NCBI GenBank assembly: GCA_905339405.1
Contig: CAJPGC010000039.1
Span: 15,000-78,999 of the forward strand
Origin: an uncultured bacterium
GTDB lineage: Bacteria; Desulfobacterota; GWC2-55-46
Direction of reading: 5' to 3'
DNA: 64,000 nt
In this document: piece by piece, positions 1,292 through 53,436 of the stretch
How the letters are laid out: each line of letters starts with the position of its first letter
Numbering within the stretch: position 1 is the first letter of the stretch
Notes under the pieces: generated by a model
Databases searched by the model: none
What the model was told of the DNA's origin: nothing
What the model saw: only the letters and a program-made list of their open reading frames with translations
Made by a program: the position numbers and the translations under genes

Positions 1292-2590
1292 TTAAGCCAT
1301 GCCGATATCCTTCTTCGCGAACTTCTCTGCGCAATCCGGGCAGATGCAGTGGGTGAATTCGGCACCGGTACGCTCGTGCAGGAACTTCTCGAGGCCTTCC
1401 CAGGAGCCCTTGTCGTTCCTTATTTTCTTACAGTAGGCGCATATTGGCAGGAGGCCGCTTGAAAAATTCACGTTGGCCGGCTCAGCCCGCTTGCGCCCGG
1501 TCATATCGACGACTATTCCGCGGAGGCCCGTTACGCGGCCGTCAAGGGAGCGCTTGACGCCTCCGCGCGCGATGACCCATCTTCCTGAACCAGCCAGTTC
1601 GAGGTCGAGCTCATAAGGCTGCCCCGTCTCGAGGCTCTTTTTCACAGCCTCACCGAGCTCTTTCGCGCTTCCGGGGACATATACCCTCAAGTGCTCCTCG
1701 AACCTCTCCGGAGGCATACCCGGGTCAAGGCCCAAAAGGCGGCAGGCCCCGACTGACCATGCTGCCCTGCCTGATTCCACGTCCAACTCCCAGCTACCGG
1801 TCCGGCCTATTCTCTCTATTTCTCCGGCCTCCTGCTCCATCCTGCCGATGGTATCCTCCGAGAGATTGTTGAGAGACTCGAGGCGCTCCCGTTCGAGTAT
1901 GTTGTAAAGGAGCCTGCTGACCTCGAGGTAGCCCTGGTTTGGAAGGAGCATCTCCTCGGGGGAGGTATAATAGAAGTTCCTGCAGACCTGCCCCCTGTAG
2001 ATGACCAGCGGGTGGGTCCGTATGACGTCCATGATTATCTCGGGGCTGAACCGCCCGATATTGTATTGGCAGATCGCGAGCGCGTCGTTTTCAGGGAAGA
2101 AATAATTGAGCTTCGATTCGTACTCAATGAGCCTGTCTGAGCCCGGGTCTCCGCCGAGCATCCATGTCATCTCGCCAGTCACGCGAAGGCCCGTGTACCC
2201 GTCGGACTTTGCGGCATCGGCCGCGTCCTTGAGGAAACCTATCATCCAGTCCGGGTCGAAATATCCCTGCTTGAGGTAGGCTTCCTTCTTGCTTATGACG
2301 CTCAAGGCCCCTTTGGCGAGAGCGGCCTTGATGTCGACACCGCCTTTTTCCATCCGCTCGAGGACCTCGCCGGAGGTGTTTTCGTCGGCGACATACACGC
2401 ACCTCTCGCCGCGCTCGAGGCCGATGCGCACGAATGGGACTACGGCGGCGAACTGCTCTTCAGGTGTCTCGTAGATAAGACAGAGGTGGTCGTGAAAACC
2501 AAGCCCTTCGACGGCCTTCAAAAGACCCTTGTAGCGCGGATACTCGCCGGAGGAGCTATCCCTTCTACTGTCTATGGCCATGAGCCGCAC
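1292..2590 (-). CDS. MEDS-domain plus PAS-domain sensor protein with a C-terminal Cys/His-rich (zinc-ribbon-like) motif
   Basis: N-terminus (HDHLCLIYETPEEQ...) matches the MEDS sensory domain. The centre looks like a PAS fold. The C-terminus LPICAYCKKIRNDKGSWE...HCICPDC carries a CxxC..HxxCxxC metal-binding-like motif. Confidence 0.55.
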   Translation of the reverse strand: MRLMAIDSRRDSSSGEYPRYKGLLKAVEGLGFHDHLCLIYETPEEQFAAVVPFVRIGLERGERCVYVADENTSGEVLERMEKGGVDIKAALAKGALSVISKKEAYLKQGYFDPDWMIGFLKDAADAAKSDGYTGLRVTGEMTWMLGGDPGSDRLIEYESKLNYFFPENDALAICQYNIGRFSPEIIMDVIRTHPLVIYRGQVCRNFYYTSPEEMLLPNQGYLEVSRLLYNILERERLESLNNLSEDTIGRMEQEAGEIERIGRTGSWELDVESGRAAWSVGACRLLGLDPGMPPERFEEHLRVYVPGSAKELGEAVKKSLETGQPYELDLELAGSGRWVIARGGVKRSLDGRVTGLRGIVVDMTGRKRAEPANVNFSSGLLPICAYCKKIRNDKGSWEGLEKFLHERTGAEFTHCICPDCAEKFAKKDIGMA

Positions 2591-2721
2591 CCCTTTCAGT
2601 TCTCATTATATCATCTGCTGATATTTTGAAAAAAGGAAAGAAATGCGCAGTTACTTTTCCAAAACTGGTTCCACATTAAATCTATTGTGCTTAGAACTGT
2701 ATTCTAAGCCTATCCCCATGG

Positions 2722-3579
2722 TCAAGACAAAAAAGATGGCTGTATATGGTGTAGAAGAGCCTGCCTTGGTTTTGTCTTTGTCTCTGAGTCTTTCCTGATA
2801 TTTCTTTCCTTGAAGTAAACATCCTGAGGCGTCCGGTAGTCGAGGGCCTGATGGAGCCTCTCCGTGTTGTAGAAGTGAAAGTACCTGGCAAGGGACTCTC
2901 TGGCCTCTTTGACGGTCTCGTAGCTCTTAAGGTAGACTTCTTCGTACTTGACCGTCCTCCAGAGCCTCTCAACGAAGATGTTGTCCATTGCTCTGCCCCT
3001 GCCGTCCATGCTGATGGCGACCCCGAGTTTTTCAAGCCGCTCCGTGAACTCAACGCTCGTGAACTGACTTCCCTGGTCGGAGTTGAAGATGTCCGGGCTG
3101 GAAAGAGAAAGCGCCCTTTCCAGTGCCCTTATGCAGAACTCCGCATCCAGCGTCGTCGAGACCTCCCAGGAGAGCACATAGCGGCTGTGCCAGTCCATTA
3201 TGGCCACGAGGTAGATAAAGCCGCCCTTGAGCCGTATATACGTTATGTCCGTTGACCACACGTGGTCAGGGCGCTCTATGACGACGTCCTTCAGGAGATA
3301 CGGATACTTCTTATGGTCCTTGGCTGGCTTTGAGAGCCACGGCTTCGGATATACGGCCTCCAGCCCCAGGATCTTCATCAGACGCCTTACCCTCTTGCGG
3401 TTTACCATGTAGCCCCGGGTCCTGAGCCACTCCGTCATCTTCGGCACGCCGTAGAAGGGTGTCTTCGTATACTGCTCGTCCAGGAGCGTCATAAGGGCCT
3501 CGTTGAGCTCGTTCCGCTCCCTTGCCCTGTAATAGTAAGCCGCCTTAGAGAGGCCAAGAAGCCGGCACTGGCGCGACAC
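2722..3579 (-). CDS. IS3-family transposase OrfB (DDE integrase core, rve); probably expressed as an OrfAB fusion by a -1 frameshift, so the true frame extends upstream to the A9 site near 3650
   Basis: Motifs DITYIRLKGGFIYLVAIMDWHSRYVLSWEV ... NSDQGSQFTS ... ERLWRTVKYEEVY are the canonical rve/IS3 OrfB signature. Confidence 0.85.
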   Translation of the reverse strand: MSRQCRLLGLSKAAYYYRARERNELNEALMTLLDEQYTKTPFYGVPKMTEWLRTRGYMVNRKRVRRLMKILGLEAVYPKPWLSKPAKDHKKYPYLLKDVVIERPDHVWSTDITYIRLKGGFIYLVAIMDWHSRYVLSWEVSTTLDAEFCIRALERALSLSSPDIFNSDQGSQFTSVEFTERLEKLGVAISMDGRGRAMDNIFVERLWRTVKYEEVYLKSYETVKEARESLARYFHFYNTERLHQALDYRTPQDVYFKERNIRKDSETKTKPRQALLHHIQPSFLS

Positions 3580-3619
3580 AGGTATCTCAGAATTCCTTGG
3601 CTCTATTAAGGCTTTCTTC

Positions 3620-3904
3620 TCACTTGCCGAGGAGCTGAGATTTTTTTTTAAGCCAGTCCAGCTCCACCTTGAGCTGCCCTATTTGCCGGTAAAGCTCATC
3701 TGTCTCCGCCGCGTCTTCTTTTTGTTCCTTTCGCCGCCTGTCAGAGAAAAGGCCGGGGAGGTCCTCCAGAAGCCGCTTCTTCCACTGGCCGATCTGGTTT
3801 GGATGTACCCCGTACTCGCTCGCGATCTGGGCTATCGTTTTCTCGCCCTTGACCGCCTCAAGCGCCACCTTAGCCTTGAACGCCGCATCATGATTCTTCT
3901 TCAT
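3620..3904 (-). CDS. IS3-family transposase OrfA (HTH DNA-binding)
   Basis: 94 aa. IAQIASEYGVHPNQIGQWKKRL is an HTH and a leucine-zipper-like C-terminus follows. The final codons LKKKSQ are encoded by the A9 slippery sequence. Confidence 0.85.
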   Translation of the reverse strand: MKKNHDAAFKAKVALEAVKGEKTIAQIASEYGVHPNQIGQWKKRLLEDLPGLFSDRRRKEQKEDAAETDELYRQIGQLKVELDWLKKKSQLLGK

Positions 3905-3926
3905 TCTGCCTGCCTCCTGACCGTTA

Positions 3927-6605
3927 TTAGCAGGCTACCATACACCAAATACCTTTGTCTAAATTTTGGGGAGTATTATATTCAATTATTTTAATTTTCA
4001 TATGATTACCAAGTTCTAAAGAATAGATGTTCAATCCTAGGTGTGACAATTTTGCGATATAAATGAATCCGACAGCAGCTACGCCAAACTCCACAAAAAC
4101 GCCATAATTTTGAATAGAAATTATTTCACCTTCAATAATTGTTCCCGGAGGATAATCATTTATCAATTTTTCTTCTGCATTCAAATTGGTATGTGATTTT
4201 GCTCTTTCTAAATTTAAAAGTGCCGCAGAAATATCAAACAACTTCTCAAAATGTCCATCCTCCAAATATGCCTCCGGCCTAGAAATAAACTCTGCCCTAT
4301 AACTCTGCAAATATTTTGTTAAATCTTCGGCATTCAAGATACTTGTCTCTTGAGAAAAATGACCCTTGCCTGTTTGATTTGTCATTCTTTTCCAAATCCT
4401 ATCAGCCACTTCGCTGTTCTTATACCAAACATCCTCCGAACAAGCAGCCAAATAATCAATATTATTAACCAAGTCTAGATGAACGTGACCTGCCGGAGAA
4501 ATTGACACCAAATCACCCTCATTAATCTGATCAAGATCTTGGGTTTCAGAAACTACAGCCCCAAATTTCAGTAATTGAGCGAGCTCAATTTGTACTTTGT
4601 CAATGGAATGACCTAAAGACACCATATCTGAGCAAAGATCTATAATTTTATGATATCCTTTTATGCCGCTCGGGCCAAACTTTCTATATCTTTTTTCTAG
4701 CCACTGTAAAATCTCTAATCTAATAAAGGGATCAGGTATAATGTCTTCAGGATAAGAAAGAAATAAATTTTTTACTGACGATCCTGCATCCTGAAAATAT
4801 CTCCTATTTCCACGAAGAATGAGTCTCATTATTATGTGTTTTGGCAACGTATAATCACCTTGCGACTGCCTTATCTTTAGAATTTCATCTGGCGTAATAT
4901 GTCCACTTTTACAGAATTCAAGAAAAATTTCCAGCCCTCTCCTTATATCTCGGCCTGAAATTCCAGTTACAATTCTCCTAAAAAGGCTATCTGTAAAAAG
5001 TGATCTCAAGATGCAAGCCAAATAAATACCCTGCTCAGACCGTGGGTACTCAACTCTCATACCATTAGGGAGCACATAGCTTAATAGTTCCTCATCTTTT
5101 TGTTCTCCTCTCTTCTTATTCATCGTAGCCAAAGCAAAACCAATTCGTTTTGCTATTACCTGTGCTAACAATGGTGGGTCGATCCTGAATACTAAATCCT
5201 TTATTACTGTATCAAGTGGCGGTTCCTTACGGTGATGATCAAATGTGGTATCGCGTATTGGTAGAACCACTAAGCACTCAAACTCATTCTGCATCCACTT
5301 TGCGACTTCAAACATCAATAGCTGATCATCCCTTTTCCTTCTGTCACAATTATCCAGAACTACTACTGCCAATTTGCCTCTGTCTCGACACAGATATCTA
5401 ATATAAGCTTTCAAAGAATGTATTGGATTATTAAGGAGGCTTTGTAGTTCTGACGCAATGAGGTTTTTATATTCTACAGTACAAGGGTCAAATATTGCTG
5501 CCGGCCCTTTCTCAATTTTACGCAGTTCAACAGAATATAACTTTCTAAGTGTATTAAGTTCTTCGAAGTCAATATCAGAATACAATTCCTTAAATTTCGC
5601 CATTAGGCTTTCACAAAGCCATTTATAAATTTCCTCTTTGGACAAAGGGGCCTTATTTAAATCAACAGAAAGCCACACTGTTTTATCTTTTATTTCCCGG
5701 TGCAACGCAACTTCTGTTAAATAATCTATAAAGGTAGATTTTCCACTACCAACTCCACCCACTAATAGTAATATTTCATTTTTTAGACTCCAAAGGTTTT
5801 TAAATTTATCGGTTAGTTCTATTGGTCGTCCAGTATCCTGAATTTCTTTTATGCTAGACATTGTTAAAGGTATTGCCGATTTAATTATTCTTTCTATAGG
5901 GCTTACATGGCTTATTCTCTTTTTTGTAGTCACATAAGCATTTTTAACAACATTTTTTCTCTCATCTAATGTGCTCGGATTGAAAAGATAACGGTAATCT
6001 AGTGCTAATGTTGCACCAAAACTGTTTTGTTCTAATTCTTCATTTTGGACTGCTCGACCACCCAACATATTAATCGGTCTTTTAAATGTGGTGCCGCTTC
6101 TTAGAGAATTTAGTTTTGAATTTATAAAATCTGTCAATATTCTTTTTGACCCAAATTCAAGCAATCTAGAATACTTTTCACCTCCTACAAATATTTCATC
6201 AAAGAAAAGACTTACTTGCTCCTCTACGCTATCAGAAAAAGTTGCTACTATTTTCTTGCCATTAGTGGTTAAAATCTTTTGACAGGGGTTTATGTTATGC
6301 GGGAATTTTGCATTTAATTCTTGCGCATACAATCTAGCTTCTGTGCATGCACTTTCCAGTTCCACACTTGGATGTTTAACCTCGATTATCAAAACAGGCA
6401 ATCCTTGAATAAGTATTACATAATCCGGATAGTATAATTTTGAGCTTTTACCCTTTCCAATTACCAACTGTCTTAAATCAACTTTCGTTCTGAATTCAGA
6501 AGTACTGAACCCAAACCCCAGCGGATCAGGCGCAATAAGCATTTGGATAACAAACTTTTGTTCAACATCGCTTTCATTTAATAAATCTTCTATTTTACAA
6601 AACAT
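3927..6605 (-). CDS. Large island protein (892 aa): N-terminal HsdR-N-type PD-(D/E)xK nuclease-like domain, central P-loop NTPase (Walker A GGVGSGKST, Walker B VVVLDNCD, about 130 aa apart, STAND/KAP-like), helical middle region, C-terminal S1/OB-fold domain; the 3' end is overlapped by the IS3 terminus
   Basis: N-terminus SDVEQKFVIQMLI..LGF...YPDYVILIQGLPVLIIEVKHP fits the type I restriction HsdR N-terminal (HSDR_N) PD-(D/E)xK pattern. LLLVGGVGSGKSTFIDYL and LAVVVLDNCD are the P-loop motifs. C-terminus GTIIEGEIISIQNYGVFVEFGVAAVGFIYIAKLS...MKIKIIEY..LDKG fits the S1 pattern G.V.G.V..I..FGAFV..G..GL.HIS. The locus has a strong RBS (GGGAGGG) and is AT-rich throughout. Confidence 0.7.
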   Translation of the reverse strand: MFCKIEDLLNESDVEQKFVIQMLIAPDPLGFGFSTSEFRTKVDLRQLVIGKGKSSKLYYPDYVILIQGLPVLIIEVKHPSVELESACTEARLYAQELNAKFPHNINPCQKILTTNGKKIVATFSDSVEEQVSLFFDEIFVGGEKYSRLLEFGSKRILTDFINSKLNSLRSGTTFKRPINMLGGRAVQNEELEQNSFGATLALDYRYLFNPSTLDERKNVVKNAYVTTKKRISHVSPIERIIKSAIPLTMSSIKEIQDTGRPIELTDKFKNLWSLKNEILLLVGGVGSGKSTFIDYLTEVALHREIKDKTVWLSVDLNKAPLSKEEIYKWLCESLMAKFKELYSDIDFEELNTLRKLYSVELRKIEKGPAAIFDPCTVEYKNLIASELQSLLNNPIHSLKAYIRYLCRDRGKLAVVVLDNCDRRKRDDQLLMFEVAKWMQNEFECLVVLPIRDTTFDHHRKEPPLDTVIKDLVFRIDPPLLAQVIAKRIGFALATMNKKRGEQKDEELLSYVLPNGMRVEYPRSEQGIYLACILRSLFTDSLFRRIVTGISGRDIRRGLEIFLEFCKSGHITPDEILKIRQSQGDYTLPKHIIMRLILRGNRRYFQDAGSSVKNLFLSYPEDIIPDPFIRLEILQWLEKRYRKFGPSGIKGYHKIIDLCSDMVSLGHSIDKVQIELAQLLKFGAVVSETQDLDQINEGDLVSISPAGHVHLDLVNNIDYLAACSEDVWYKNSEVADRIWKRMTNQTGKGHFSQETSILNAEDLTKYLQSYRAEFISRPEAYLEDGHFEKLFDISAALLNLERAKSHTNLNAEEKLINDYPPGTIIEGEIISIQNYGVFVEFGVAAVGFIYIAKLSHLGLNIYSLELGNHMKIKIIEYNTPQNLDKGIWCMVAC

Positions 6606-6624
6606 CTTTTTTCCCTCCCATTAG

Positions 6625-6660
6625 AGAATTTAACAGAAAATAACATTTTTTCAAACAAAA
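6625..6660 (-). promoter_or_regulatory. Putative sigma-70-type promoter for the island gene (minus strand TTGAAA-N16-TAAATT), followed by RBS GGGAGGG 7 nt upstream of the ATG
   Basis: Read from the reverse complement of 6606-6680. The hexamer spacing fits the consensus. No experimental support. Confidence 0.3.
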
Positions 6661-6911
6661 AGGTTGACAGGCGGTCTAACACATCAATGCTGCGTAATGC
6701 AGTTTAATAACAACTGGAACATAAATAAAATTGTCTATCCAGCCCACGAGAATACCGCTGTTTTTTTGTGTTTTTGGATATTACATTATAATCAAGTGTG
6801 GACATTCACACAGTTTCAATGCTTCTGAGTCATACGGTATACTCACCACTACTGAATTAGATCAATGTAAGGGTACTGGAAAAAGGGTTAGCACAAATTT
6901 TTCAGCTAAAT

Positions 6912-6944
6912 AAAAAAGGGACCTGCCTTCCGGCGGTCCCTTTT
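6912..6944. terminator. Rho-independent terminator hairpin GGGACC-TGCCTTCCGGC-GGTCCC with flanking A6 and T4 runs (works on either strand)
   Basis: Hairpin and U-tracts read directly. It lies between tRNA-Pro and the island gene promoter. Confidence 0.5.
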
Positions 6945-7093
6945 ACTTGGTCAGTTCGAGGCGGCACCGGTCGTCGGCTCCCGCCTCCTCCCTCTGGCCG
7001 CGGGCCGGCTCGCTTCCGGCCTGCCTCCCGGCAGGCCTCTTCCTCGCGCTGCTCGGCGCTCGCCGTCTTTCGAATCCTGCCATTTACCAATAT

Positions 7094-7130
7094 AAAAAAA
7101 GGGGGCAGCCTGAAGGCTGTCCCCTTTTTA
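7094..7130. terminator. Rho-independent terminator for tRNA-Pro (minus-strand reading GGGGACAGCC-TTCA-GGCTGCCCCC then T7)
   Basis: Perfect 10-bp GC-rich stem, 4-nt loop, T-run immediately 3' of the tRNA on the minus strand. Confidence 0.65.
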
Positions 7131-7134
7131 TTAT

Positions 7135-7212
7135 TTGGTCGGGGCGAGAGGATTCGAACCTCCGGCCCCCGCGTCCCGAACGCGGTGCTCTACCAGACTG
7201 AGCCACGCCCCG
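7135..7212 (-). tRNA. tRNA-Pro (anticodon CGG), CCA encoded
   Basis: Minus strand reads CGGGGCG-TG-GCTC-AGTCTGGT-AGAGC-A-CCGCG-TTCGGGA-CGCGG-GGGCC-GGAGG-TTCGAAT-CCTCT-CGCCCCG-A-CCA. All four stems pair and the anticodon loop is UU-CGG-GA. Closely similar to E. coli tRNA-Pro. Confidence 0.85.
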
Positions 7213-7381
7213 ACTGTCAACTGAATCAACTGCTTGCGTCTCAGGAAAACGCCTTGGAATCACATTTCCCGGTGTTTCGCCGTAACCTGCCGCGCCCGCA
7301 AAAACCTGCATTTGAAGCGGTGAGTCCTTTTTAATAACATATCTCTACAGCCTACGCAAGAGATTCTATGAATTTCTATGC

Positions 7382-8611
7382 TCAGCTGCTCAGGACCCGG
7401 CCCACCCTGTTGTCCTCGTCTACCGCGTCCCTCAGGAAGTCGAGCACCCCGGGTATGCCCGCGCTCACCCTCCTCCAGCTCGGTATGAGAGGCGTTCCCA
7501 TCGGGTTTTCCAGCACTGCAGCGGCCCCCTTGTGAATCGCCCTTATGAACGCCTCCACGGCCTTTGCCTCGCCGTGCCTATCGTAAACTAGCCCGTTTAT
7601 CGCGGCGTCGGCCTCGTATTTGACCATCGTGTCCTCGGCGAGCCTCAGGTAGCCCACTTCAAGGGACTTGAAAAAGTTGTCCGAGAACACCACGCCCTCT
7701 GCCGCGAGGACCCTGAATATGGACTTTGAGATGTCCACGCACATCTTCATGAGCCCCCTGCTCTCGTCCTCTGGGGAGAGATCCTGGTGCTTGTGCTCGT
7801 AATTGTCGGTTATGTCCACCTGACAGACCCTTTTCGCCGAATAGTTCCTGAAGACCTCCGAAAGAACGCCTACCTCGAGCCCCCAGTCCCAGGGGATACG
7901 GTTGACCCAGGCGAGGTCGGTTATCATGCAGAACTCCCCGGAAAGAGGGTACCTGAAATCATCGAGGAACGAGAGGAAGTCGTGGCCGCCCACCAGCTTC
8001 TGCAGGGCCCTCACGAGCGGAGTTATGAGGAGCCTTGTGACCCTCCCGTGCATCCTGTCTGTCACCCTGCTGTAAAAGCCTTTGCAGAACACCACGTCTA
8101 TGTTGGGGTTCATCACGGGATAGCACAGGCGCGCGAGCATCTCCCTGTTATAGTTCACGATGTCGCAGTCGTGGAGGGCTATGACGTCCGAGCGCCCGGA
8201 AGCTATCGTGTACCCGTAGGCGAGCCAGGCCGAACGCCCCTTGCCGTCCTCGCCAGCCCACAACCCGTAGTCTTCGAGCGTCGAGTAGAGCGCCTTTATC
8301 CTCTTGCCTTCGTTATGTATTATCTTGACGTCGTAGGGGATGTCGGACATGAACTTCATCGCTTTTTCGAACTCCTCGTCCGAAGCCCGGCCCAGAGAAA
8401 GAACTATCTCCTTTATGTACCTGACTCTCTTGAGCTCCTCTACTATGCCGCGGAGCGCGTCTGCCTCGAACTCTGAGTAAAGCGCGGGCAGGACCAGGGT
8501 TGCAGGCCTGCTCTTGGAAAAACCGGCCAGCTCGTGCTCTATCCTGTCGAGCCCGTCGCCGCCCAACCTGTGCAGCGTCGTTATGACGTCAGTCTGGTAA
8601 AAATCCGACAT
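7382..8611 (-). CDS. Glucosyl-3-phosphoglycerate synthase-like glycosyltransferase (GT81/GpgS family) with a C-terminal extension
   Basis: Recalled alignment to mycobacterial GpgS: VLPAL near the N-terminus, GKGRSAWLAYGY (GKG.A.W), DVIALHDCD (the DxD-type SDL motif region), and KGFYSRV...GRVTRL...PLSGEF (KSFYRRP..GGRVTEL..PLSGEY). Confidence 0.55.
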   Translation of the reverse strand: MSDFYQTDVITTLHRLGGDGLDRIEHELAGFSKSRPATLVLPALYSEFEADALRGIVEELKRVRYIKEIVLSLGRASDEEFEKAMKFMSDIPYDVKIIHNEGKRIKALYSTLEDYGLWAGEDGKGRSAWLAYGYTIASGRSDVIALHDCDIVNYNREMLARLCYPVMNPNIDVVFCKGFYSRVTDRMHGRVTRLLITPLVRALQKLVGGHDFLSFLDDFRYPLSGEFCMITDLAWVNRIPWDWGLEVGVLSEVFRNYSAKRVCQVDITDNYEHKHQDLSPEDESRGLMKMCVDISKSIFRVLAAEGVVFSDNFFKSLEVGYLRLAEDTMVKYEADAAINGLVYDRHGEAKAVEAFIRAIHKGAAAVLENPMGTPLIPSWRRVSAGIPGVLDFLRDAVDEDNRVGRVLSS

Positions 8612-8831: not shown

Positions 8832-10679
8832 CTACTTCACGGCTTTCCCCGGCACCGTGAAATGGAAGGACGACCCGCTGCCCTCGGCTGATTCGACCCA
8901 TATCCTGCCGCCGTGGCGCTCGACTATCCTTTTGCATATCGCCAGCCCCAGCCCGGTGCCGGGATACCTCTTGCCGTGGACGCGCTGGAATATTATGAAG
9001 ACCTTGTCAATGTCCCCCGGGGCTATGCCCACGCCATTGTCCTTCACGGAGAAGACCCAGCCTTCGGCGCTTTCACGGGAGACGACCTCTATGACCGGCT
9101 TCCCGCCGGGCTTCCTGAACTTGATGGCGTTGCCGATGAGGTTCTGCAGGAGGCGGACGAATTGCGCCGGGTCGGCGTAGACAACGGGCAGCTGACCGCG
9201 TTCGACAACGGCCCCGCTTTCTTTTATTGCCGTCGAGAGGTTCTCGAGCGCGCCGTCCAGGACGGCGTTCATATCGACCCTCTCGAAAGCACCGCCAGCG
9301 GTGTTGACTCGCGAGAACTCGAGGAGGTCTTTTATCATGTGCTCCATTCTGGCCGCGCCGTCGACGGCCGATTCCACGAAGCCCTCAGCCTCTTGGTCGA
9401 GTCTTCCGGTAAGCCTCCTTTCTAGAAGACGCAGGTAGCTCGTCACCGCGCGCAGCGGCTCCTGCAGGTCGTGAGAGGCGACGAAAGCGAACTGCTGCAG
9501 GTCGGCGTTCGAACGCGTAAGCTCGTCCAGTACCTTATCGAGCTCCTCTTCGGCCTTCTTCCGCTCGGTTATGTCGCGGTCGATACCCCTGTACCCGCGG
9601 ACGACGCCTGACTTGCCGTAAAAAGGCACGCCGCCGCTTTCGAGCACCACGAGACGGCCGTCCTTCGTCAGGTTCCTGTTCTCAAGGTTTGAGAACGGCT
9701 CGGCCGCGCCCATCACCTTCGCGAAAAACTCCCTTACCCGGGCCGCCTCGCCCTCAGGCATCACGTCGAAAGGCGTCTTTCCGATGAGCTCTTCGGGTTC
9801 GTACCCGAGGATAGAGCGCACCTGCGGGCTGATATAGCTGTAGACGCCGTTTACGTCGACCTCCCATATGATGTCGTTCGTCGTCTCGACGAGGTTGCGG
9901 AACCGCTCCTCTTCGGCCATTATGGCTTCCCGCGCCTTCATGCGCTCGCGTATGTCGACGCTGCCCCTTCGGTAGGCGAACCCTATGCCAGCCATGCCCA
10001 GGACCCAGACGAGCAGATGCGAAGAGACGATAGTGCGGTCAAGCATCGTCTCCTTGGCGAGATAGGGCTTCATCGGCAGAGACACGCTTACACCTCCGCG
10101 AATGTCCCCCACCTTATAACCCTGATGGGCGTGGCACTTGAGGCACCCCTCCTGCGTGACCATCGGCTGCATTAGACGCAGATAAGGCTGCCCGCCGATT
10201 TTCGTGAACTCGACCTTCTCTTTGACTGCCCTGTTCTCGAATGACTTGAGGGCCTCCGCCTCCCAAGCGTCGGGTCTGTTCGCCGGGTTAAGGGGGTTCA
10301 GGCTCGTTATGTGGCCCTTTACGCCGTAAAGCTCGCTGTATTCGGCCATTGCCTGCTTCATGATATAGGCCGGGTTCATGAGGGTGAGCTTCTTGCCTGA
10401 AGGGAGCTCGATGTCCCTGTCGGGTATGTGGCTCAAGTAGGGGTTTGGCGGGGTAGTCTCACTGGGCGGGACGTAAACGCCGCCGTGGTTTGTCGCCCAG
10501 AAGCGGAACGCCTGGTCCTTGTTGAAGGTCGTCAATGCCTCCATTTTGGCCAGCTCGCGGGTATGGTCCCGCACCTGGCGGAGGTTCACGCCCACGGACG
10601 CCCCGGCAAGGGCCGTAAACGCGATTACTATGACGGCGGTCAGCCGCCTCAAATTGTAATATGTCCCTTTACTATGCAT
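8832..10679 (-). CDS. Sensor histidine kinase with a periplasmic DUF3365/Tll0287-like domain carrying a CxxCH haem-c motif, then PAS, HisKA and HATPase_c
   Basis: TM segment near the N-terminus. CLKCH (CxxCH) sits in the predicted periplasmic domain. A PAS domain follows (NDIIWEVD...), then the H-box (FVASHDLQEPLR) and N/G-boxes (GNAIKF.., GTGLGLAICKRIVERHGG). The likely start is the internal ATG (MHSKG...) with RBS GGAG; the longer ORF runs to 10727. Confidence 0.75.
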   Translation of the reverse strand: MHSKGTYYNLRRLTAVIVIAFTALAGASVGVNLRQVRDHTRELAKMEALTTFNKDQAFRFWATNHGGVYVPPSETTPPNPYLSHIPDRDIELPSGKKLTLMNPAYIMKQAMAEYSELYGVKGHITSLNPLNPANRPDAWEAEALKSFENRAVKEKVEFTKIGGQPYLRLMQPMVTQEGCLKCHAHQGYKVGDIRGGVSVSLPMKPYLAKETMLDRTIVSSHLLVWVLGMAGIGFAYRRGSVDIRERMKAREAIMAEEERFRNLVETTNDIIWEVDVNGVYSYISPQVRSILGYEPEELIGKTPFDVMPEGEAARVREFFAKVMGAAEPFSNLENRNLTKDGRLVVLESGGVPFYGKSGVVRGYRGIDRDITERKKAEEELDKVLDELTRSNADLQQFAFVASHDLQEPLRAVTSYLRLLERRLTGRLDQEAEGFVESAVDGAARMEHMIKDLLEFSRVNTAGGAFERVDMNAVLDGALENLSTAIKESGAVVERGQLPVVYADPAQFVRLLQNLIGNAIKFRKPGGKPVIEVVSRESAEGWVFSVKDNGVGIAPGDIDKVFIIFQRVHGKRYPGTGLGLAICKRIVERHGGRIWVESAEGSGSSFHFTVPGKAVK

Positions 10680-17263: not shown

Positions 17264-17423
17264 ACTTAGAGTCTATAAGAGAATCCGGCAAAAGCAATGG
17301 GGGGGCGGCAAGGAAGGAAAAGGGGGGATTATGCAGAGTTTTATGATGAAAATGTAGCGAATGTCTTTTTTGAAGTTCTAATAGATATGAGATGTATGCT
17401 CACAAAGAGTTTTACCAAAAACC

Positions 17424-17575
17424 ATGTAACGCGGCTTCCGCCGCTCTCTGTAACAGGGCTCTACGCGCTTTCTTCCTCCCCACCCGCGAACCTAGCCCCT
17501 GAGGTCGCTTCGCTCCCGACTTCCCCGGCTCGGTTCGCCACTCCCTCCCTTAGGCGCGCTCCGCCCTGTTACGGT
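17424..17575. repeat. Intergenic repeat family A, copy 1 (about 150 bp, long imperfect palindrome with GTAACAGGGC / GCCCTGTTAC termini)
   Basis: Near-identical core (CCCACCCGCGAACCT.GCCCCTGA.GTCGCTTCGCTCC...CCCCGGCTCGGTTCGCC) to copies at 39468-39622 and, reverse-complemented, 53063-53215. Confidence 0.7.
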
Positions 17576-17633
17576 GTAAGGTTAAATACAATACAAGTAC
17601 AATTATTCTCCATTTTAGCGGGGCCGTCTTTCA

Positions 17634-18725: not shown

Positions 18726-21208
18726 TCAACGCAGTCAGCGGCTGCCGCCGGGAGCGTTATCCTGGCGGCCGTACCGGCTCCGGGAGCGGAGTCGAGCTCA
18801 AGGGAGCCCCTGTGCTCCTTTATTATCGAATACGATATCGAAAGCCCAAGTCCGGTGCCGCCGCGGTCGGATTTAGTCGTGAAGAAGGGCTCCATCACCC
18901 TGTCGAGGACTTCCCTGGCCATCCCGTCCCCTTCGTCCCTGACCTCGATCACTACCTTGCCTTCCTCCTGCCTGGTCGAGACCCTGACGCGCCTTTTCCT
19001 GTCCGGCAGCGCGTGCAAGGCGTTGAGGACGAGGTTTATTATGACCTGCTCCACCTTCTGGCTCGAGCCCCTCACCTTCGGGAGGTCCTCAGCGCAGTCG
19101 ACCTCGAAGGAATCCGTGTACTTGGTTATCTGGTTGCTCAGAATCGACACTGAAGCCTTCACGGCCCGGTTCACGTCGAAACTGCCCTCCAGGCCCGCCT
19201 TGTCCTTGCGCGAGAAGTCCTTGAGGTTGTCGACTATCCCCTTTATCCTCCTCGACCCGTCGGTTATGCCGGCCAGGAGCTCCGGGACCACCTCGCTCAT
19301 CTCGGAGTAAGGCAGGCCGCCCAGGGAGAAATCCCCGTTGTCGCGGTAGTACGTCTCAAGTATCCTGGCCGCGTCCTTCCACGCGTCCGAAAGAAGGGTC
19401 GAGTTGAAGAGGATGAAGTTGTTCGGGTTGTTTATCTCATGGGCAACGCCTGAGGCGAGAGTGCCGATCGAAGCCATCTTGTTCGCGTGGATGAGCTTCG
19501 CCTGGATGTTCCTTGCCTCCTCCTCCATCCTGAGGAGCTCGGTGAGGTCCTTGACGGTGCACAGCACCATCGCGCTCTGCCTTAGGTTTATTACCTGCCC
19601 CCTCAAGGAGACCACCGCCTTCGTGCCGTCCTTCCTCACCGCCTCCGTCCTCTCGAACGAGAAGCCTCCCCGCGTAGAGTAACCCTCTTTCACTTTCACG
19701 CAGACCTCCGGGCCCATGAAACAGGCCTCAGGCATGCCGGTGAGCTCAGCGCGCGTATAGCCGAAGAGCGCCACTGCCGCCGGGTTGGCGTCGATTACGC
19801 GGCAGCCGCCCAGGCCGAGTATCACCTGAGCGTCCTGGTTCTGCTCGAACATTTGCCTGAAGCGCTCTTCGCTTTCGCGCAGGGCCTCCTCGGCCATCTT
19901 CCTCGCGGTTATGTCGCGCTTTATCCCGAGCGCCAGCTCCTTGTCGCCCACCCTCAGGGGCGTTATCGCCATGTCGACCCATATCTCCGAGCCGTCCTTC
20001 CTCCTGAGGCGGACCTCCGGCATATACCCGCCGTCCTTCCACGCGCGCCTGTGCTCTTCTATCTTTCCGATGGCTTCAGGCTGGACGAGGAGACGCACGC
20101 CGGAGGAAAGGAGCTCCTCTTTCGTGTAGCCGAACATCCGGCAGCCAGCGAGGTTCACGTCGAGGTAGTTCCCATCGAGGTCTATGACGAACATCCCGTC
20201 GAGGGCGGAGTCGAATATGGTCCGGAGCCGCTTCTCGCTGTCCCTCATGGCAGCCTCGGCCTTCTTCCTTTCAAAGGACTGCTCGAAGGACTGCAGGGCG
20301 AAGCCGATGTCAGCAGCAAGGCTCTCAAGGAGGTCTATGGTCTTTCCGGCGAAGGAGCCGGGAGAGGAGCTGTAAACGTTCATGCTGCCGAAGACGGCCC
20401 CTTCCGCCAGTATGGGGAAAGAGGCGCACGCCCTGAACCCGAAGGCCCGCGCAGCCTCCCTCCAGGGCGCGTATCTTTCGTCCGTCTCCGTGTCCAGGCA
20501 GACGGCGTGCCTTCCTGTGCGCACGGCGGCCCCTGCCAGACCCATGCCGAACGGCTTTCCATCGGCCCCGTCGTTTAGCGCGGCGAAAAAGCCTTCGGCG
20601 CACCCGGCGTGGCATACCGGCCTTATCGACGCCCCGGCAAAGTCGGCCTTGCCTATCCAGGCCATCATGAACCCGGCCTTCTCGACGAGTATCCTGCAAG
20701 TCTCGGAGAAGACCCTGCCGCTGCAGCTCTCGCGCACGACCATCTTGTCGACTTCAAGTATGGTCTCGAGAAGGCGGTTCAGGAACAATATCTCTTCTTC
20801 AGCCTTCCTTCGGGCGCGCCTGGTCTCGTACTCCCGGAGCTCCCTTTCAACGGCGGGAGGGAGCCTGGAAAGCCTGTCCTTCAATATGTAATCGTCGGCA
20901 CCGGCCTGCATGGCCGTCACCGCGAAATCCTCGCCCATGTAGCCGGAGACTATTATGACGGGCACGTCGAGCCCTGCCGCTCGCACGCTCCTTACGACCT
21001 CGAGACCCGAGAGCAAAGGCATCCGGTAGTCCGCGATGACGAGGTCCCAAACGCCGGCCGAGATGGCTTCGGCGAGGTCCTTTTCGTTGTCCACGCGCCT
21101 GAAGGACATCTCGAAACCGCCGCGCCTCAGCTCGCGCATGATGAATATGAGGTCGTCTTCGGAGTCTTCCGCTATAAGTACTCTTAACGGCCTGATTTCC
21201 TTCGTCAT
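18722..21208 (-). CDS. Hybrid response-regulator / sensor histidine kinase (N-terminal receiver, GAF, two PAS, HisKA, HATPase_c)
   Basis: Receiver VLIAEDSEDD...DLVIADYRMP, GAF-like region, PAS cores, H-box GVAHEINNP, and ATPase boxes (NLVLNALHAL, GTGLGLSISYSIIKEHRGSL). Confidence 0.8.
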   Translation of the reverse strand: MTKEIRPLRVLIAEDSEDDLIFIMRELRRGGFEMSFRRVDNEKDLAEAISAGVWDLVIADYRMPLLSGLEVVRSVRAAGLDVPVIIVSGYMGEDFAVTAMQAGADDYILKDRLSRLPPAVERELREYETRRARRKAEEEILFLNRLLETILEVDKMVVRESCSGRVFSETCRILVEKAGFMMAWIGKADFAGASIRPVCHAGCAEGFFAALNDGADGKPFGMGLAGAAVRTGRHAVCLDTETDERYAPWREAARAFGFRACASFPILAEGAVFGSMNVYSSSPGSFAGKTIDLLESLAADIGFALQSFEQSFERKKAEAAMRDSEKRLRTIFDSALDGMFVIDLDGNYLDVNLAGCRMFGYTKEELLSSGVRLLVQPEAIGKIEEHRRAWKDGGYMPEVRLRRKDGSEIWVDMAITPLRVGDKELALGIKRDITARKMAEEALRESEERFRQMFEQNQDAQVILGLGGCRVIDANPAAVALFGYTRAELTGMPEACFMGPEVCVKVKEGYSTRGGFSFERTEAVRKDGTKAVVSLRGQVINLRQSAMVLCTVKDLTELLRMEEEARNIQAKLIHANKMASIGTLASGVAHEINNPNNFILFNSTLLSDAWKDAARILETYYRDNGDFSLGGLPYSEMSEVVPELLAGITDGSRRIKGIVDNLKDFSRKDKAGLEGSFDVNRAVKASVSILSNQITKYTDSFEVDCAEDLPKVRGSSQKVEQVIINLVLNALHALPDRKRRVRVSTRQEEGKVVIEVRDEGDGMAREVLDRVMEPFFTTKSDRGGTGLGLSISYSIIKEHRGSLELDSAPGAGTAARITLPAAAADCVE

Positions 21209-21278
21209 TTCCCTTCCAGGATGCGATTATAGAATGATTGGGCAATAGTGAAGCGGATATGTATATTGTATTAACAAT

Positions 21279-39366: not shown

Positions 39367-39467
39367 AAAAGCCGTAACCGTAACCGGTCACGGCTTTGTG
39401 AACGCGCTTTAGCAAGGCTTTCATGAAACTTTTCGGTCGCTGCCGCGCAAAGAGAACTGTTCCGTAA

Positions 39468-39622
39468 TACCGCGTAACGCGGCTGCCGCCGCTCTCTGTA
39501 ACATGTTCTGCGCGCTTTCCGCCTCCCCCACCCGCGAACCTCGCCCCTGAAGTCGCTTCGCTCCAACAGCCCCGGCTCGGTTCGCCGCTTCCTCCGCAAG
39601 AAGCGCTCCACATGTTACGGCG
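39468..39622. repeat. Intergenic repeat family A, copy 2 (termini GTAACATGT / ACATGTTAC, compensatory to copy 1)
   Basis: Shares the core (CCCACCCGCGAACCTCGCCCCTGAAGTCGCTTCGCTCC...CCCCGGCTCGGTTCGCC) with copies 1 and 3. Confidence 0.7.
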
Positions 39623-52840: not shown

Positions 52841-53062
52841 ACCTCTAATCCCTCTCCTTTGTTGGATAGGAAGTTTTTGGAACTTGTATTTAACACATAC
52901 ACTGTAACAGGACGGTATTTTGGCAAGGCACTTCGAGCGCGACAGCGCGCGAGGTGGAATGGTGGGCACCCCACCCTACCCTCTGAGATTGCTTCGCTCC
53001 GCACGCGATGACAAACCCTCTCCCACAAGTGGAGAGGGTTTTTGCTTTGCCTTTAACCCAGA

Positions 53063-53215
53063 CACCGTAACAGGGCGGAGCGCGCCTAAGGGAGGAAGAG
53101 GCGGAGCCGAGGCTGTCGGGAGCGAAGCGACCTCAGTGGCGAGGTTCGCGAGTGGGGGAGGAAGAAAGCGCGTAGAGCCCTGTTACAGAAAGCGGCGGCA
53201 GCCGCGTTACGCGGT
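53063..53215. repeat. Intergenic repeat family A, copy 3 (reverse orientation)
   Basis: Reverse complement matches copies 1 and 2 (CCGTAACAGGGCGGAGCGCGCCTAAGGGAGG...GTCGGGAGCGAAGCGACCTCAGTGGCGAGGTTCGCG...CTGTTACAG). Flanked by 23-bp direct repeats TTCGAGCGCG(A/G)CAGCGCGCGA at 52930-52952 and 53234-53256. Confidence 0.7.
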
Positions 53216-53436
53216 ATTTCAGCGAAGCATTTCGAGCGCGGCAGCGCGCGAACAAGTTGGCGAAAGCCTCAAACACCCTGCTCAAAAAAGACGAGATTCT
53301 TCGGGCGCTACGCTCCCTCAGAATGACAAATTAATCCCATGTCCCCCTTCAAAAAAGAAGGGATATTCAATGACAGTGAAATAAAAAAAGGCGGTCAGCT
53401 TTCGCTGACCGCCCTTTTCAATTCATGCCCAACCCC

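What the first reader, a model, noticed from the sequence alone, without database searches (positions are those of the whole stretch)
2595..6900. AT-rich genomic island next to the tRNA-Pro 3' end, in a genome that is otherwise about 60% GC or higher
Base composition drops abruptly at about 2595, the stop of the MEDS/PAS gene, and returns to host-like GC at about 6900. It is interrupted only by the GC-moderate IS3 element at 2713-3972. The island abuts two tandem terminators and tRNA-Pro(CGG) at 7135-7212. tRNA 3' ends are classic integration sites, but I see no integrase and no clear direct repeat of the tRNA 3' end. This looks like an old or minimal horizontally acquired cargo locus carrying one large gene.
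Basis: seen in the sequence. Interest (0 to 1): 0.75.

Follow-up and report, generated by a model that had tools for sequence, protein, structure and literature searches.

The report
Foreign single-gene islet beside tRNA-Pro
A 3-kb AT-rich stretch carrying one large nuclease-ATPase gene, probably an anti-phage defence gene, was inserted between a tRNA-Pro gene and its normal neighbour and later hit by an insertion sequence; this is an ordinary kind of genomic island, but its cargo gene family has not been studied.

Summary
Window 3979-6912 has GC 0.354 against about 0.58 for the rest. The big gene has GC3 0.28 against 0.74-0.80 for its neighbours. Three related genomes (L002/L037, L033, L067) have tRNA-Pro(CGG), one terminator, an ~80-nt spacer and then the MEDS/PAS promoter, so the block is an insertion. 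A fourth relative (L004) carries a different low-GC island there (type III R-M plus MNT/HepT), bounded by a 43/43-nt copy of the tRNA 3' part. The locus is therefore a reused hotspot.

- 2595-2638 is the native MEDS promoter, not island. 2590 is the start of that gene, not its stop.
- The IS3-family element spans 2705-3980 with a GAA duplication. It sits inside the cargo gene and replaces its last 16 codons.
- A decayed tRNA 3' repeat does exist (6948-6989), but it lies on the tRNA side of the AT-rich block.

The cargo protein (891 aa when intact) has an HsdR-N-type PD-(D/E)xK nuclease, an ORC/Cdc6/STAND-like AAA+ ATPase, winged-helix domains and an S1 domain. It matches no PADLOC model. Its homologues are solo genes, always poorer in GC than their flanks, in ICEs, plasmids and prophages, including the P2 gpA-gpQ defence hotspot. 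The island is ordinary. The cargo is a good uncharacterised defence candidate.

The parts
7136..7212 (-). tRNA-Pro(CGG), intact. Its 3' end faces the island.
   Evidence: ARAGORN; Rfam tRNA 65.8 bits. Orthologous tRNAs lie next to MEDS in L002, L033, L037 and L067.
7098..7129 (-). Terminator T1, directly after the tRNA.
   Evidence: Hairpin plus T-run. Aligns with the single terminator of L002 and is nearly identical to that of L033.
6990..7097 (-). GC-rich filler (GC 0.66 over 6913-7093). It holds a copy of the native post-terminator spacer motif GGATTCGAAAG.., and I read it as the ghost of an earlier insertion event.
   Evidence: Aligns with L004 9757-9800 and with the spacer of L067 and L004. 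The 62-aa ORF here is low-complexity and runs through T2, so I do not take it as a gene.
6948..6989 (-). Decayed direct repeat of the 3' part of tRNA-Pro (an old attR-like remnant).
   Evidence: Against the degenerate copy in L004, score 24 with 0/1000 shuffles reaching it. Against the tRNA 3' part, score 12 with 10/1000. The L004 copy against the tRNA gives 0/1000; alignment A2.
6913..6944 (-). Terminator T2, of the native type. The AT-rich DNA begins right after its T-run.
   Evidence: 91% identical to the terminators of L002 and L004-Tb.
6606..6912 (-). AT-rich 5' region of the cargo gene (GC 0.345), with a promoter-like site at 6654-6627 and a GGGAGGG ribosome-binding site.
   Evidence: No Rfam hit, no excess folding (z 0.58) and no conservation with the upstream regions of homologues.
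3981..6605 (-). Cargo gene, codons 1-875. Approximate domain ranges: PD-(D/E)xK nuclease (1-135), AAA+ ATPase (275-480), helical and winged-helix region (480-806), S1 domain (from about 820). The present ORF runs on into the IS to 3927 (892 aa, last 17 aa encoded by the IS).
2705..3980 (-). IS3-family insertion sequence, 1276 bp. orfA is 3620-3904 and orfB (DDE/rve) is 2722-3579, with an A9 slippery run near 3641-3649. It is flanked by a 3-bp duplication, GAA, at 3981-3983 and 2702-2704.
   Evidence: Pfam. An identical copy in another context (L028) fixes the orfA-side end: identity stops exactly at L027 position 1100, which is window 3980. The other end is set by the end of the L028 contig and by where the cargo reading frame resumes. 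GC3 is 0.70-0.74, like the host.
2651..2701 (-). Displaced 3' end of the cargo gene: 16 codons (YSSKHNRFNVEPVLEK) plus the TAA stop at 2651-2653.
   Evidence: Joining across the IS gives an 891-aa ORF whose C-terminus aligns with those of homologues (..H.RF.LKP..). The S1 profile match lengthens from positions 3-39 to 3-65 of 74.
2639..2650 (-). Distal junction. About 12 nt lie between the cargo stop codon and the point where similarity to relatives resumes.
   Evidence: L002 9944-10052 aligns with window 2638-2530; A3 alignment.
2582..2638 (-). Native promoter and leader of the MEDS/PAS gene (-35 TTTTCA, extended -10 TGATATAAT). AT-rich, but not island DNA.
   Evidence: Conserved in L002, L004, L033 and L067.
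1292..2581 (-). MEDS/PAS sensor gene, the native neighbour of tRNA-Pro in related genomes.
   Evidence: Pfam MEDS 2.9e-54. Orthologues are 76-83% identical and sit next to tRNA-Pro.

Best explanation
The AT-rich block is foreign DNA. It was gained after this genome's lineage split from its sampled relatives. About 3.0 kb, made of a 307-bp 5' region and one 891-codon gene ending about 12 nt before native sequence resumes, now takes the place of the ~80-bp spacer between the native-type terminator downstream of tRNA-Pro(CGG) and the MEDS/PAS promoter.

The interval between the tRNA and MEDS is a hotspot that has been used repeatedly in this lineage. It carries a decayed copy of the tRNA 3' part in this genome. 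In a relative it carries a complete att-bounded defence island.

Later, a resident IS3-family element inserted 16 codons before the stop of the cargo gene, duplicating GAA and swapping the last strand of the S1 domain for IS-encoded residues.

The cargo is a stand-alone protein: an HsdR-N-type PD-(D/E)xK nuclease, an ORC/Cdc6/STAND-like AAA+ ATPase, winged-helix domains and an S1 domain.

Inferred, not shown: it is a one-protein defence gene against phages or mobile elements. The winged-helix and S1 end would bind invader RNA or single-stranded DNA, NTP-dependent assembly of the ATPase module would follow, and that would switch on the N-terminal nuclease.

Also inferred: the gene arrived on a larger mobile element, or by recombination between the conserved flanks, and only the gene survived.
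For: Foreign composition. GC is 0.354 against about 0.58, and GC3 is 0.284 against 0.74-0.80.

Empty sites. L002/L037, L033 and L067 have tRNA-Pro, one terminator, an ~80-nt spacer and then the MEDS -10 box and ATG.

Hotspot. L004 has methylase, MNT/HepT, ResIII and a second methylase in low-GC DNA ending at a 43/43-nt copy of the tRNA 3' part. That is followed by the same terminator / spacer / decayed-repeat unit seen at window 6913-7129.

IS came later and is resident. It has a clean 3-bp duplication inside the ORF, the ORF continues in frame beyond it, its GC3 matches the host, and a 100% identical copy lies next to a GmrSD_N gene in another sample.

Defence context of homologues. They are solo genes in an ICE (L026), in an integrative element next to a type I R-M system (L025) and next to HicAB (L024). 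They occur on 16 IMG/VR viral contigs. In three P2-like prophages they sit between gpA and the portal gene gpQ, and in at least three others directly after a CI-like repressor. Rousset et al. 2022 describe the gpA-gpQ interval as an anti-phage hotspot (PMC9122126).
Against: The route of entry is not visible. There is no recombinase, no att repeat or target duplication flanking the AT-rich block, and no similarity between its ends and other loci.

Only four relatives were informative, and all are metagenome-assembled genomes.

Defence function rests on gene neighbourhood and domain content only. No PADLOC v2 model matches the protein, nothing was found in the literature searched, and no experiment exists.

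The IS has altered the S1 domain, so the gene here may be crippled (pLDDT below 50 for residues 879-886).

Low GC is shared by the whole family. That weakens it as a sign of recent transfer, though not as a sign of foreignness.
Confidence: 0.72

Rival explanations
1. The AT-rich gene is the last remnant of a classical integrase-mediated island that integrated into the 3' end of tRNA-Pro. Its integrase, its far att repeat and its other cargo were later deleted. T2 and the decayed repeat in front of it would then be the junction left when a younger element integrated on the tRNA side.
For: The tRNA is a proven attachment site in the lineage, since L004 has a 43/43-nt attR bounding a defence island. 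The window holds a decayed tRNA 3' repeat at 6948-6989. In tandem arrays, older elements lie farther from the tRNA. Homologues of the cargo ride on integrative elements (L025, with an integrase) and sit near tRNA genes (L031 tRNA-Asp about 880 nt upstream, L026 at the end of an ICE).
Against: The block lies beyond a terminator of the native type (T2 is about 91% identical to the sole terminator of L002 and L004-Tb), exactly where relatives have their native spacer. Nothing tRNA-like is found at the far end, which is 12 nt from the stop codon. This reading needs at least one extra, very precise deletion.
Confidence: 0.3
2. The gene is ancestral at this position and was lost independently in the relatives. 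Its AT-richness would reflect a functional constraint of the family rather than foreign origin.
For: Every homologue examined is poorer in GC than its flanks (22 of 22 loci, by 0.01-0.20), so low GC travels with the family.
Against: It is absent from three related lineages that keep a simple tRNA, terminator, spacer and MEDS arrangement, and a fourth has unrelated cargo there. The nearest homologue anywhere is only 57% identical. Homologues sit in ICEs, plasmids and prophages across phyla. A GC3 gap of about 0.5 is far beyond any functional bias seen in neighbouring genes.
Confidence: 0.04
3. The IS3-family element brought the gene in, as a composite or one-ended transposon, or by IS-mediated rearrangement.
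For: The IS lies at the MEDS-side edge of the block. An identical IS copy sits next to another defence-type gene (GmrSD_N) elsewhere.
Against: The IS has its own 3-bp duplication inside the gene, and the last 16 codons and stop of the gene lie beyond it. The IS therefore interrupts the cargo and does not bound it. There is no second IS copy in the 64-kb window. The composition of the IS is host-like, unlike the cargo.
Confidence: 0.03
4. The cargo is foreign but is not an immune gene. It could be a selfish or addiction-type nuclease, or an RNA-processing or DNA-repair enzyme that mobile elements carry for their own use.
For: It matches no known defence HMM. The S1 domain is typical of RNA metabolism. 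There are no experimental data. Some contexts are not clearly defensive (L031, L032).
Against: It occupies the P2 gpA-gpQ hotspot in three prophages and lies after a CI-like repressor in at least three others. It sits next to a type I R-M system and to HicAB. Its layout of nuclease effector, AAA+/STAND-like switch and nucleic-acid-binding end mirrors known immune proteins. Its distribution is patchy and MGE-borne.
Confidence: 0.25

Closest known systems
tRNA-linked genomic or defence islands (integrase-mediated islands at tRNA 3' ends)
   Same: It lies next to the 3' end of a tRNA, has atypical base composition, is absent from relatives and carries defence-type cargo. The same tRNA carries an att-bounded island in relative L004.
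   Different: There is no integrase. No att repeats flank the AT-rich block. The block sits distal to a native-type terminator and a decayed repeat. It holds only one gene.
Avs/AVAST-type antiviral STAND NTPases with N-terminal nuclease effectors
   Same: It is a single polypeptide with an N-terminal PD-(D/E)xK effector and a central P-loop switch that resembles CED-4/Apaf-1/NLR. It is borne on mobile elements.
   Different: No Avs model in PADLOC matches it. The ATPase is at least as close to ORC/Cdc6 and BrxC. The C-terminal part is winged-helix plus S1 rather than TPR-like repeats, which points to a nucleic-acid ligand rather than a protein ligand.
Type I restriction enzyme HsdR (the name NCBI gives to many homologues)
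   Same: It has the N-terminal HSDR_N PD-(D/E)xK nuclease fold with conserved D, E and K.
   Different: It has no SF2 helicase or translocase domains and no adjacent hsdM or hsdS. It has an AAA+ ATPase and an S1 domain instead.
Cargo of the P2-like prophage gpA-gpQ hotspot (old, tin and others; Rousset et al. 2022, PMC9122126)
   Same: Homologues occupy exactly this interval in three P2-like prophage contigs. They are 2.7-kb single-gene cassettes, which is within the typical size for this hotspot.
   Different: The main text of that paper gave no match for the terms I searched (HsdR, S1 domain, REase, ATPase). Here the gene is chromosomal and not in a prophage.
BREX BrxC, ORC/Cdc6 and RADAR RdrA AAA+ modules
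   Different: Sequence identity is only 8-13%. The cargo has no partner genes from those systems, and the fused domains differ.
IS3-family insertion sequences
   Same: It has orfA (HTH) and orfB (DDE/rve), an A-run frameshift site, a length of 1276 bp, a 3-bp target duplication, and identical copies elsewhere.
   Different: The terminal inverted repeats are poor and start with TA rather than the usual TG. The group within IS3 was not assigned.

Membership tests
tRNA-integrated genomic island | Lies directly downstream of the 3' end of a tRNA gene | tested here: met
   tRNA-Pro(CGG) is at 7136-7212 (-). The extra DNA begins at 7093 and the AT-rich part at 6912.
tRNA-integrated genomic island | Flanked by direct repeats derived from the tRNA 3' end (attL/attR) | tested here: not met
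   A decayed repeat exists at 6948-6989, but it lies on the tRNA side of the AT-rich block. Nothing tRNA-like is found at the far end or inside the block.
tRNA-integrated genomic island | Encodes a tyrosine or serine recombinase | tested here: not met
   Within 2639-7093 the only ORFs with Pfam hits are the cargo gene and the two IS genes.
tRNA-integrated genomic island | Atypical composition and absence from related genomes | tested here: met
   GC3 is 0.284 against 0.74-0.80. The site is empty in L002/L037, L033 and L067.
IS3 family | orfA (HTH) and orfB (DDE rve) with a programmed -1 frameshift site | tested here: met
   HTH_Tnp_1 at 3620-3904; HTH_21, rve and rve_3 at 2722-3579. An A9 run lies in the overlap region. 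Frameshifting itself was not tested.
IS3 family | Defined ends with a short target-site duplication | tested here: met
   The identical copy L028 diverges exactly at window 3980, and its contig ends at the other IS end. GAA is duplicated. The inverted repeats are imperfect.
Type I restriction enzyme HsdR | SF2 helicase/translocase (ResIII plus Helicase_C) after the nuclease domain | tested here: not met
   Pfam finds only HSDR_N, AAA_22/KAP and S1. TIGR00348 hsdR scores 15.6 bits against a cutoff of 284.
Type I restriction enzyme HsdR | Adjacent hsdM and hsdS genes | tested here: not met
   None in the window locus. Only one of six annotated homologue loci has a type I system nearby, and that system has its own complete HsdR.
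Avs / antiviral STAND NTPase | STAND-class NTPase domain (NACHT / NB-ARC type) | tested here: inconclusive
Avs / antiviral STAND NTPase | N-terminal effector domain on the same polypeptide | tested here: met
   HSDR_N PD-(D/E)xK with invariant D61, E75 and K77.
Avs / antiviral STAND NTPase | C-terminal repeat (TPR-like) sensor, and a match to Avs family models | tested here: not met
   The C-terminal part is helical and winged-helix plus S1. PADLOC gives only P-loop-level hits with E of 0.007 or worse.
Anti-phage defence system (generic) | Recurrent location in defence islands or MGE hotspots | tested here: met
   P2 gpA-gpQ hotspot in L095, L097 and L098; after a CI-like repressor in L086, L088 and L089; next to type I R-M, HicAB and ICE cargo (PMC9122126).
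Anti-phage defence system (generic) | Experimentally shown protection against phage | not testable with these tools
   Nothing was found in the papers searched.
Ribosomal protein S1 (a name some sources give) | Several tandem S1 repeats and no other enzymatic domains | tested here: not met
   There is one S1 domain, at residues about 820-891. rpsA models score 15-26 bits against cutoffs of 368 or more.

The most novel reading that the evidence does not exclude
The cargo gene may belong to an undescribed family of one-protein immune sensors: an HsdR-N nuclease, an ORC/STAND-like ATPase, winged-helix domains and an S1 domain. The family has about 250 clusters at 50% identity with E of 1e-30 or better. 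Such a protein would detect invader RNA or single-stranded DNA through its S1 end and answer with nuclease activity. It moves between ICEs, plasmids, prophage hotspots and chromosomal hotspots as a self-contained ~3-kb AT-rich single-gene islet. The uniform AT-richness could itself be functional, for example through xenogeneic silencing that keeps a dangerous nuclease quiet.
Probability: 0.4. Interest if true: 0.65.

Novelty: new member of a known kind. Interest (0 to 1): 0.4.

Why it matters
As a genomic island this is textbook: a compositionally foreign islet at a variable hotspot next to a tRNA, later hit by an IS. Its value lies in two things.

First, it is an unusually clean example. The empty sites, the decayed att remnant, an alternative island in a relative and the IS target duplication can all be read at base resolution. 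That makes it useful for studying how hotspot cargo is turned over and whittled down to a single gene.

Second, it points to a widespread, well-conserved gene family. The family is misnamed in databases as 'type I restriction endonuclease' or 'ribosomal protein S1'. It sits in recognised anti-phage hotspots and matches no PADLOC v2 model. If it is an immune protein with an S1 sensor, it would add a nucleic-acid-sensing variant to the single-protein class built from a nuclease and a STAND/AAA+ ATPase.

Tried and rejected
(1) I searched for tRNA 3' repeats inside and at the far end of the block. Only the T1/T2 terminator similarity appeared, and it was no better than shuffles. The decayed repeat at 6948-6989 became convincing only through the intermediate copy in L004.

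(2) A motif AAAATT(T)GTGCTAA is shared by the start of the AT-rich block and the end of the L004 island. It is a chance match: 209 of 300 shuffles did as well.

(3) I looked for a non-coding RNA or conserved element in the 307-nt upstream region. There was no Rfam hit apart from a sub-threshold SurA match, the folding z-score was 0.58, and there was no similarity between the upstream regions of distant homologues.

(4) The 62-aa ORF in the GC-rich segment 6902-7090 is low-complexity and runs through the T2 hairpin, so I rejected it as a gene.

(5) PADLOC gave P-loop-level hits only. The PDB sequence search hit only the S1 domain. No solved structure resembles the whole protein (query-normalised TM-score 0.23 or less).

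(6) Literature: full-text term and accession searches, and targeted reading of DefensePredictor, a component-modularity preprint, the 2026 STAND survey, the CoCoNuT paper and Rousset 2022, gave no description of this family.

(7) L003, L035 and L036 (MEDS 68% identical) are not syntenic: no DUF2400 or GpgS match was found beside the MEDS homologue in L003 (the only one of the three checked for this), and no tRNA-Pro in any of the three. They say nothing about the site.

(9) GenBank phage records have no homologue, although 16 IMG/VR contigs do.
Full report
OBSERVATION

The composition drop is real and large. In 300-nt windows GC is 0.32-0.41 from about 3900 to 6900 and 0.55-0.63 on both sides. 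The block 3979-6912 has GC 0.354. No other 2.9-kb stretch of the 64-kb window falls below 0.552. Third-position GC of the one large ORF is 0.284, against 0.74-0.80 for the four neighbouring host genes. tRNA-Pro(CGG) is at 7136-7212 on the minus strand with its 3' end facing the block. Two hairpin-plus-T-run terminators lie at 7098-7129 (T1) and 6913-6944 (T2).

- The MEDS/PAS gene is on the minus strand, so about 2581-2590 is its start, not its stop.
- The AT-rich 2582-2638 is that gene's own promoter and is conserved in relatives.
- The insertion sequence spans 2705-3980, not 2713-3972.

ANATOMY, READ ON THE MINUS STRAND FROM THE tRNA
- tRNA-Pro, then T1.
- About 110 nt of GC-rich filler.
- A decayed copy of the tRNA 3' part (6989-6948).
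- T2.
- 307 nt of AT-rich leader with a promoter-like site and a GGGAGGG ribosome-binding site.
- The cargo ORF from 6605.
- An IS3-family element (3980-2705).
- The last 16 codons and TAA stop of the cargo gene (2701-2651).
- About 12 nt, then the MEDS promoter.

The ORF as it stands today (3927-6605, 892 aa) is a fusion whose last 17 residues come from the IS. Removing the IS and one GAA restores an 891-aa ORF. Its tail ..KIKIIEYSSKHNRFNVEPVLEK aligns with the C-termini of homologues (..H.RF.LKP..). It also lengthens the S1 profile match from positions 3-39 to 3-65 of 74.

IS THE BLOCK ACQUIRED?

The window comes from GCA_030834745.1, contig JAUQXI010000024.1. Scans with the MEDS protein found four informative relatives, all uncultured deltaproteobacterial MAGs or metagenome contigs.
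- L002 (and its near-duplicate L037; MEDS 76%, GpgS 92%, DUF2400 87% identical), L033 (MEDS 78%) and L067 (MEDS 83%): tRNA-Pro(CGG) is followed by one terminator, an ~80-nt variable spacer, the conserved TGATATAAT box and the MEDS ATG. The tRNA-to-ATG distance is 175-180 nt.
- Pairwise alignment places L002 9743-9862 on window 7213-7094, and L002 9944-10052 on window 2638-2530. The window therefore has 4455 extra bases (2639-7093) where L002 has 81.
- L004 (MEDS 71%, DUF2400 86%): about 9.5 kb of lower-GC DNA (0.32-0.50) lies directly upstream of MEDS. It encodes a methylase, an MNT/HepT pair, a ResIII protein and a second methylase.

The block is not present at this position in related genomes.

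A REUSED HOTSPOT, AND THE MISSING REPEAT

The L004 island ends with a 43/43-nt copy of the tRNA-Pro 3' part, a textbook attR. After it come a terminator, a copy of the native spacer motif (GGATTCGAAAG..), a second and degenerate copy of the tRNA 3' part, another terminator, another spacer copy and then the MEDS promoter.

The window has the same unit between T1 and T2. Window 6948-6995 aligns with the degenerate L004 copy (score 24, reached by 0 of 1000 shuffles) and more weakly with the tRNA itself (score 12, reached by 10 of 1000). So there is a decayed direct repeat of the tRNA 3' end. However, it delimits a ~190-bp ghost next to the tRNA, not the AT-rich block.

The AT-rich DNA begins right after T2. 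T2 is of the same type as the sole terminator of L002, L067 and L004-Tb. The AT-rich DNA ends about 12 nt after the cargo stop codon. It therefore takes the place of the native spacer. I found no repeat, target duplication or tRNA-like sequence at its ends. The CCTTTTTT strings on both sides are also present in the empty sites, so the insertion did not create them.

THE INSERTION SEQUENCE

orfA (HTH_Tnp_1) and orfB (HTH_21, rve, rve_3), with an A9 run between them, identify an IS3-family element. An identical transposase occurs on a contig from another sample (L028) in a different context, next to a GmrSD_N gene. The two copies are 100% identical from window 3980 inward and unrelated outside. 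The L028 contig ends exactly at the other IS end. GAA is duplicated at 3981-3983 and 2702-2704. GC3 of the IS genes is 0.70-0.74, like the host.

The IS is therefore a resident, recently active element that hit the cargo gene after its arrival. It did not deliver the gene. A 1334-nt contig from a further sample (L029) carries both gene-IS junctions, so the insertion is not an assembly artefact.

THE CARGO PROTEIN

Pfam finds HSDR_N (residues 54-119), AAA_22/KAP P-loop (277-437) and S1 (from 820). In an alignment of 56 family members, mean column identity is 54%. The nuclease triad D61/E75/K77, the Walker A G283-x2-G286-x-G288-K289 and the Walker B D418/D421 are invariant, and all are intact here.

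The AlphaFold model is confident (pLDDT 88.8, pTM 0.83), except for residues 879-886 within the IS-encoded tail. Structural matches by region:
- No solved chain resembles the whole protein.

By sequence the PDB matches only the S1 domain. PADLOC v2 gives only P-loop-level hits. NCBIfam hsdR and rpsA models score far below their cutoffs.

THE FAMILY AND ITS CONTEXTS

The word-index search listed 1097 hits. The best 120 are 739-921 aa long (114 of them 873-921 aa) and 42-57% identical to the query. The exhaustive search found 252 cluster representatives (clusters at 50% identity) at E of 1e-30 or better, including an ~800-aa subgroup whose matches end before the query's S1 region. Sources call these proteins 'type I restriction endonuclease', 'S1 RNA-binding domain-containing protein' or 'ribosomal protein S1'.

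In six annotated loci the gene is always solo. Its neighbours are:
- ICE transfer genes in Pseudomonas syringae;
- a PrimPol/D5 primase, an integrase, a resolvase and a complete type I R-M system;
- HicAB;
- Fic proteins, an IS110 element and MerT;
- RadC and SSB.

Sixteen IMG/VR viral contigs carry it. In L095 and L098 it lies between replication gene gpA and portal gene gpQ, followed by terminase gpP and, in L098, gpO. In L097 it lies next to gpQ, gpP and gpO. In L086, L088 and L089 it directly follows a CI-like HTH plus Peptidase_S24 repressor. Rousset et al. 2022 describe the gpA-gpQ interval of P2-like phages as an anti-phage hotspot, home of old and tin (PMC9122126). Three plasmids carry full-length copies. 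No GenBank phage record does.

A FAMILY-WIDE PROPERTY

In all 22 homologue loci examined, the gene has lower GC than its flanks, by 0.01-0.20 and typically by about 0.13. The dip is confined to the gene and roughly 300 nt on either side. The single-gene AT-rich islet seen in the window is therefore how this family looks everywhere. This supports foreignness. It also means low GC cannot be used to date the transfer.

HOW IT MOST LIKELY WORKS

Shown:
- The insertion is real relative to relatives.
- The locus is a hotspot.
- The IS arrived later.
- The domain make-up and the conserved catalytic residues.
- The recurrence of homologues in MGEs and prophage hotspots.

Inferred:
- The gene is a one-protein immune nuclease. 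Its winged-helix and S1 end would bind invader RNA or ssDNA, NTP-dependent assembly of the AAA+/STAND-like module would follow, and that would license the PD-(D/E)xK domain.
- The gene reached this site on a larger element, or by recombination between the conserved flanks, and only the gene was kept.
- The IS hit has damaged the last S1 strand and may have weakened or silenced the protein.

I put about 0.9 on acquisition, about 0.6 on a defence role and no more than 0.3-0.35 on any single route of entry.

RIVALS

- A decayed att-bounded island is plausible (0.3). It needs an extra precise deletion, and it is at odds with the block lying beyond a native-type terminator.
- Ancestral presence with repeated loss (0.04) and IS-mediated delivery (0.03) are contradicted by the synteny and the junction anatomy.
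- A foreign but non-defensive function (0.25) cannot be excluded without experiments.

COMPARISON WITH WHAT IS KNOWN, AND VERDICT

As an island, this is a new member of a well-known kind. It has the location, composition and patchy presence of a tRNA-linked island but fails the integrase and flanking-att criteria.

The cargo works like the single-protein class built from a nuclease and a STAND/AAA+ ATPase (the Avs-like class). It fails membership of Avs because it has no repeat sensor and no model match. It fails membership of HsdR because it has no helicase and no M/S partners. It appears to be uncharacterised.

Interest is moderate (0.4): the island is routine, and the cargo family is a worthwhile lead.

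Noticed in passing
L004 1-9718 (relative of the window genome): A low-GC island upstream of MEDS encodes an 887-aa DNA methylase, an MNT/HepT toxin-antitoxin pair, a 927-aa ResIII protein, a 595-aa methylase and a 314-aa unknown protein. It ends in a 43/43-nt copy of the tRNA-Pro 3' part. The contig starts inside the island, so the tRNA and any integrase are not seen.
   Followed up: partly
22 homologue loci: L024-L026, L030-L032, L086-L101: Every homologue of the cargo gene has lower GC than its flanks (by 0.01-0.20). The dip is limited to the gene plus or minus about 300 nt, whatever the host GC (0.40-0.65). This is a family-wide AT-rich single-gene islet signature, and its cause is unexplained.
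   Followed up: partly
L095 1120-9450; L097 1-6991; L098 3155-12876: In three P2-like prophage contigs the homologue sits in or beside the cos-proximal gpA-gpQ interval, the old/tin defence hotspot of Rousset et al. 2022. In L086, L088 and L089 it directly follows a CI-like repressor gene.
   Followed up: yes
L028 1-2375 (Logan SRR34449294): A 100% identical copy of the IS3-family element lies just downstream of a GmrSD_N (type IV restriction-like) gene and a 144-aa ORF in another sample. This makes two of two known copies next to defence-type genes. The number is too small to call a target preference.
   Followed up: no
window 7213-8611 compared with L002 5256-9743 and L033 3262-3347: The 5' side of tRNA-Pro also varies. 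The window has GpgS 170 nt from the tRNA. L002 has an extra 4.5 kb there (Na/H exchanger with TrkA_N, a Cache-domain protein, an unknown protein, and a DUF1722/2-thiouracil desulfurase protein). L033 has the histidine kinase directly before the tRNA, with no GpgS.
   Followed up: partly
window 17417-17586, 39466-39609, 53053-53219: A GC-rich repeat of about 150-170 nt is present three times in the window. Copies are 88-97% alike, and the third is inverted relative to the other two. It was not examined and could be a MITE or REP-like element.
   Followed up: no
window 9540-10000, 19880-23160, 59300-60800: Paralogous sensor-kinase genes contain repeats spaced at about 381 nt (tandem PAS domains). 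Stretches at 21500-23160 and 59500-60800 are 71-80% identical, so the window is rich in duplicated PAS/histidine-kinase genes.
   Followed up: no
window 7382-8611 (-): The 409-aa protein has no Pfam hit but matches the NCBIfam glucosyl-3-phosphoglycerate synthase model (GpgS_Meth, E 2.6e-106). The score is below the equivalog cutoff (356 against 700 bits).
   Followed up: no
representative search, P0206-P0282 (about 800-830 aa): A subgroup of relatives about 800-830 aa long matches query residues about 10-770, so their matches end before the S1 region. One homologue (P0076) has an RRM among its Pfam domains and no S1 hit, and some plasmid relatives are annotated as cold-shock-domain proteins. 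The nucleic-acid-binding end appears to be exchangeable.
   Followed up: no
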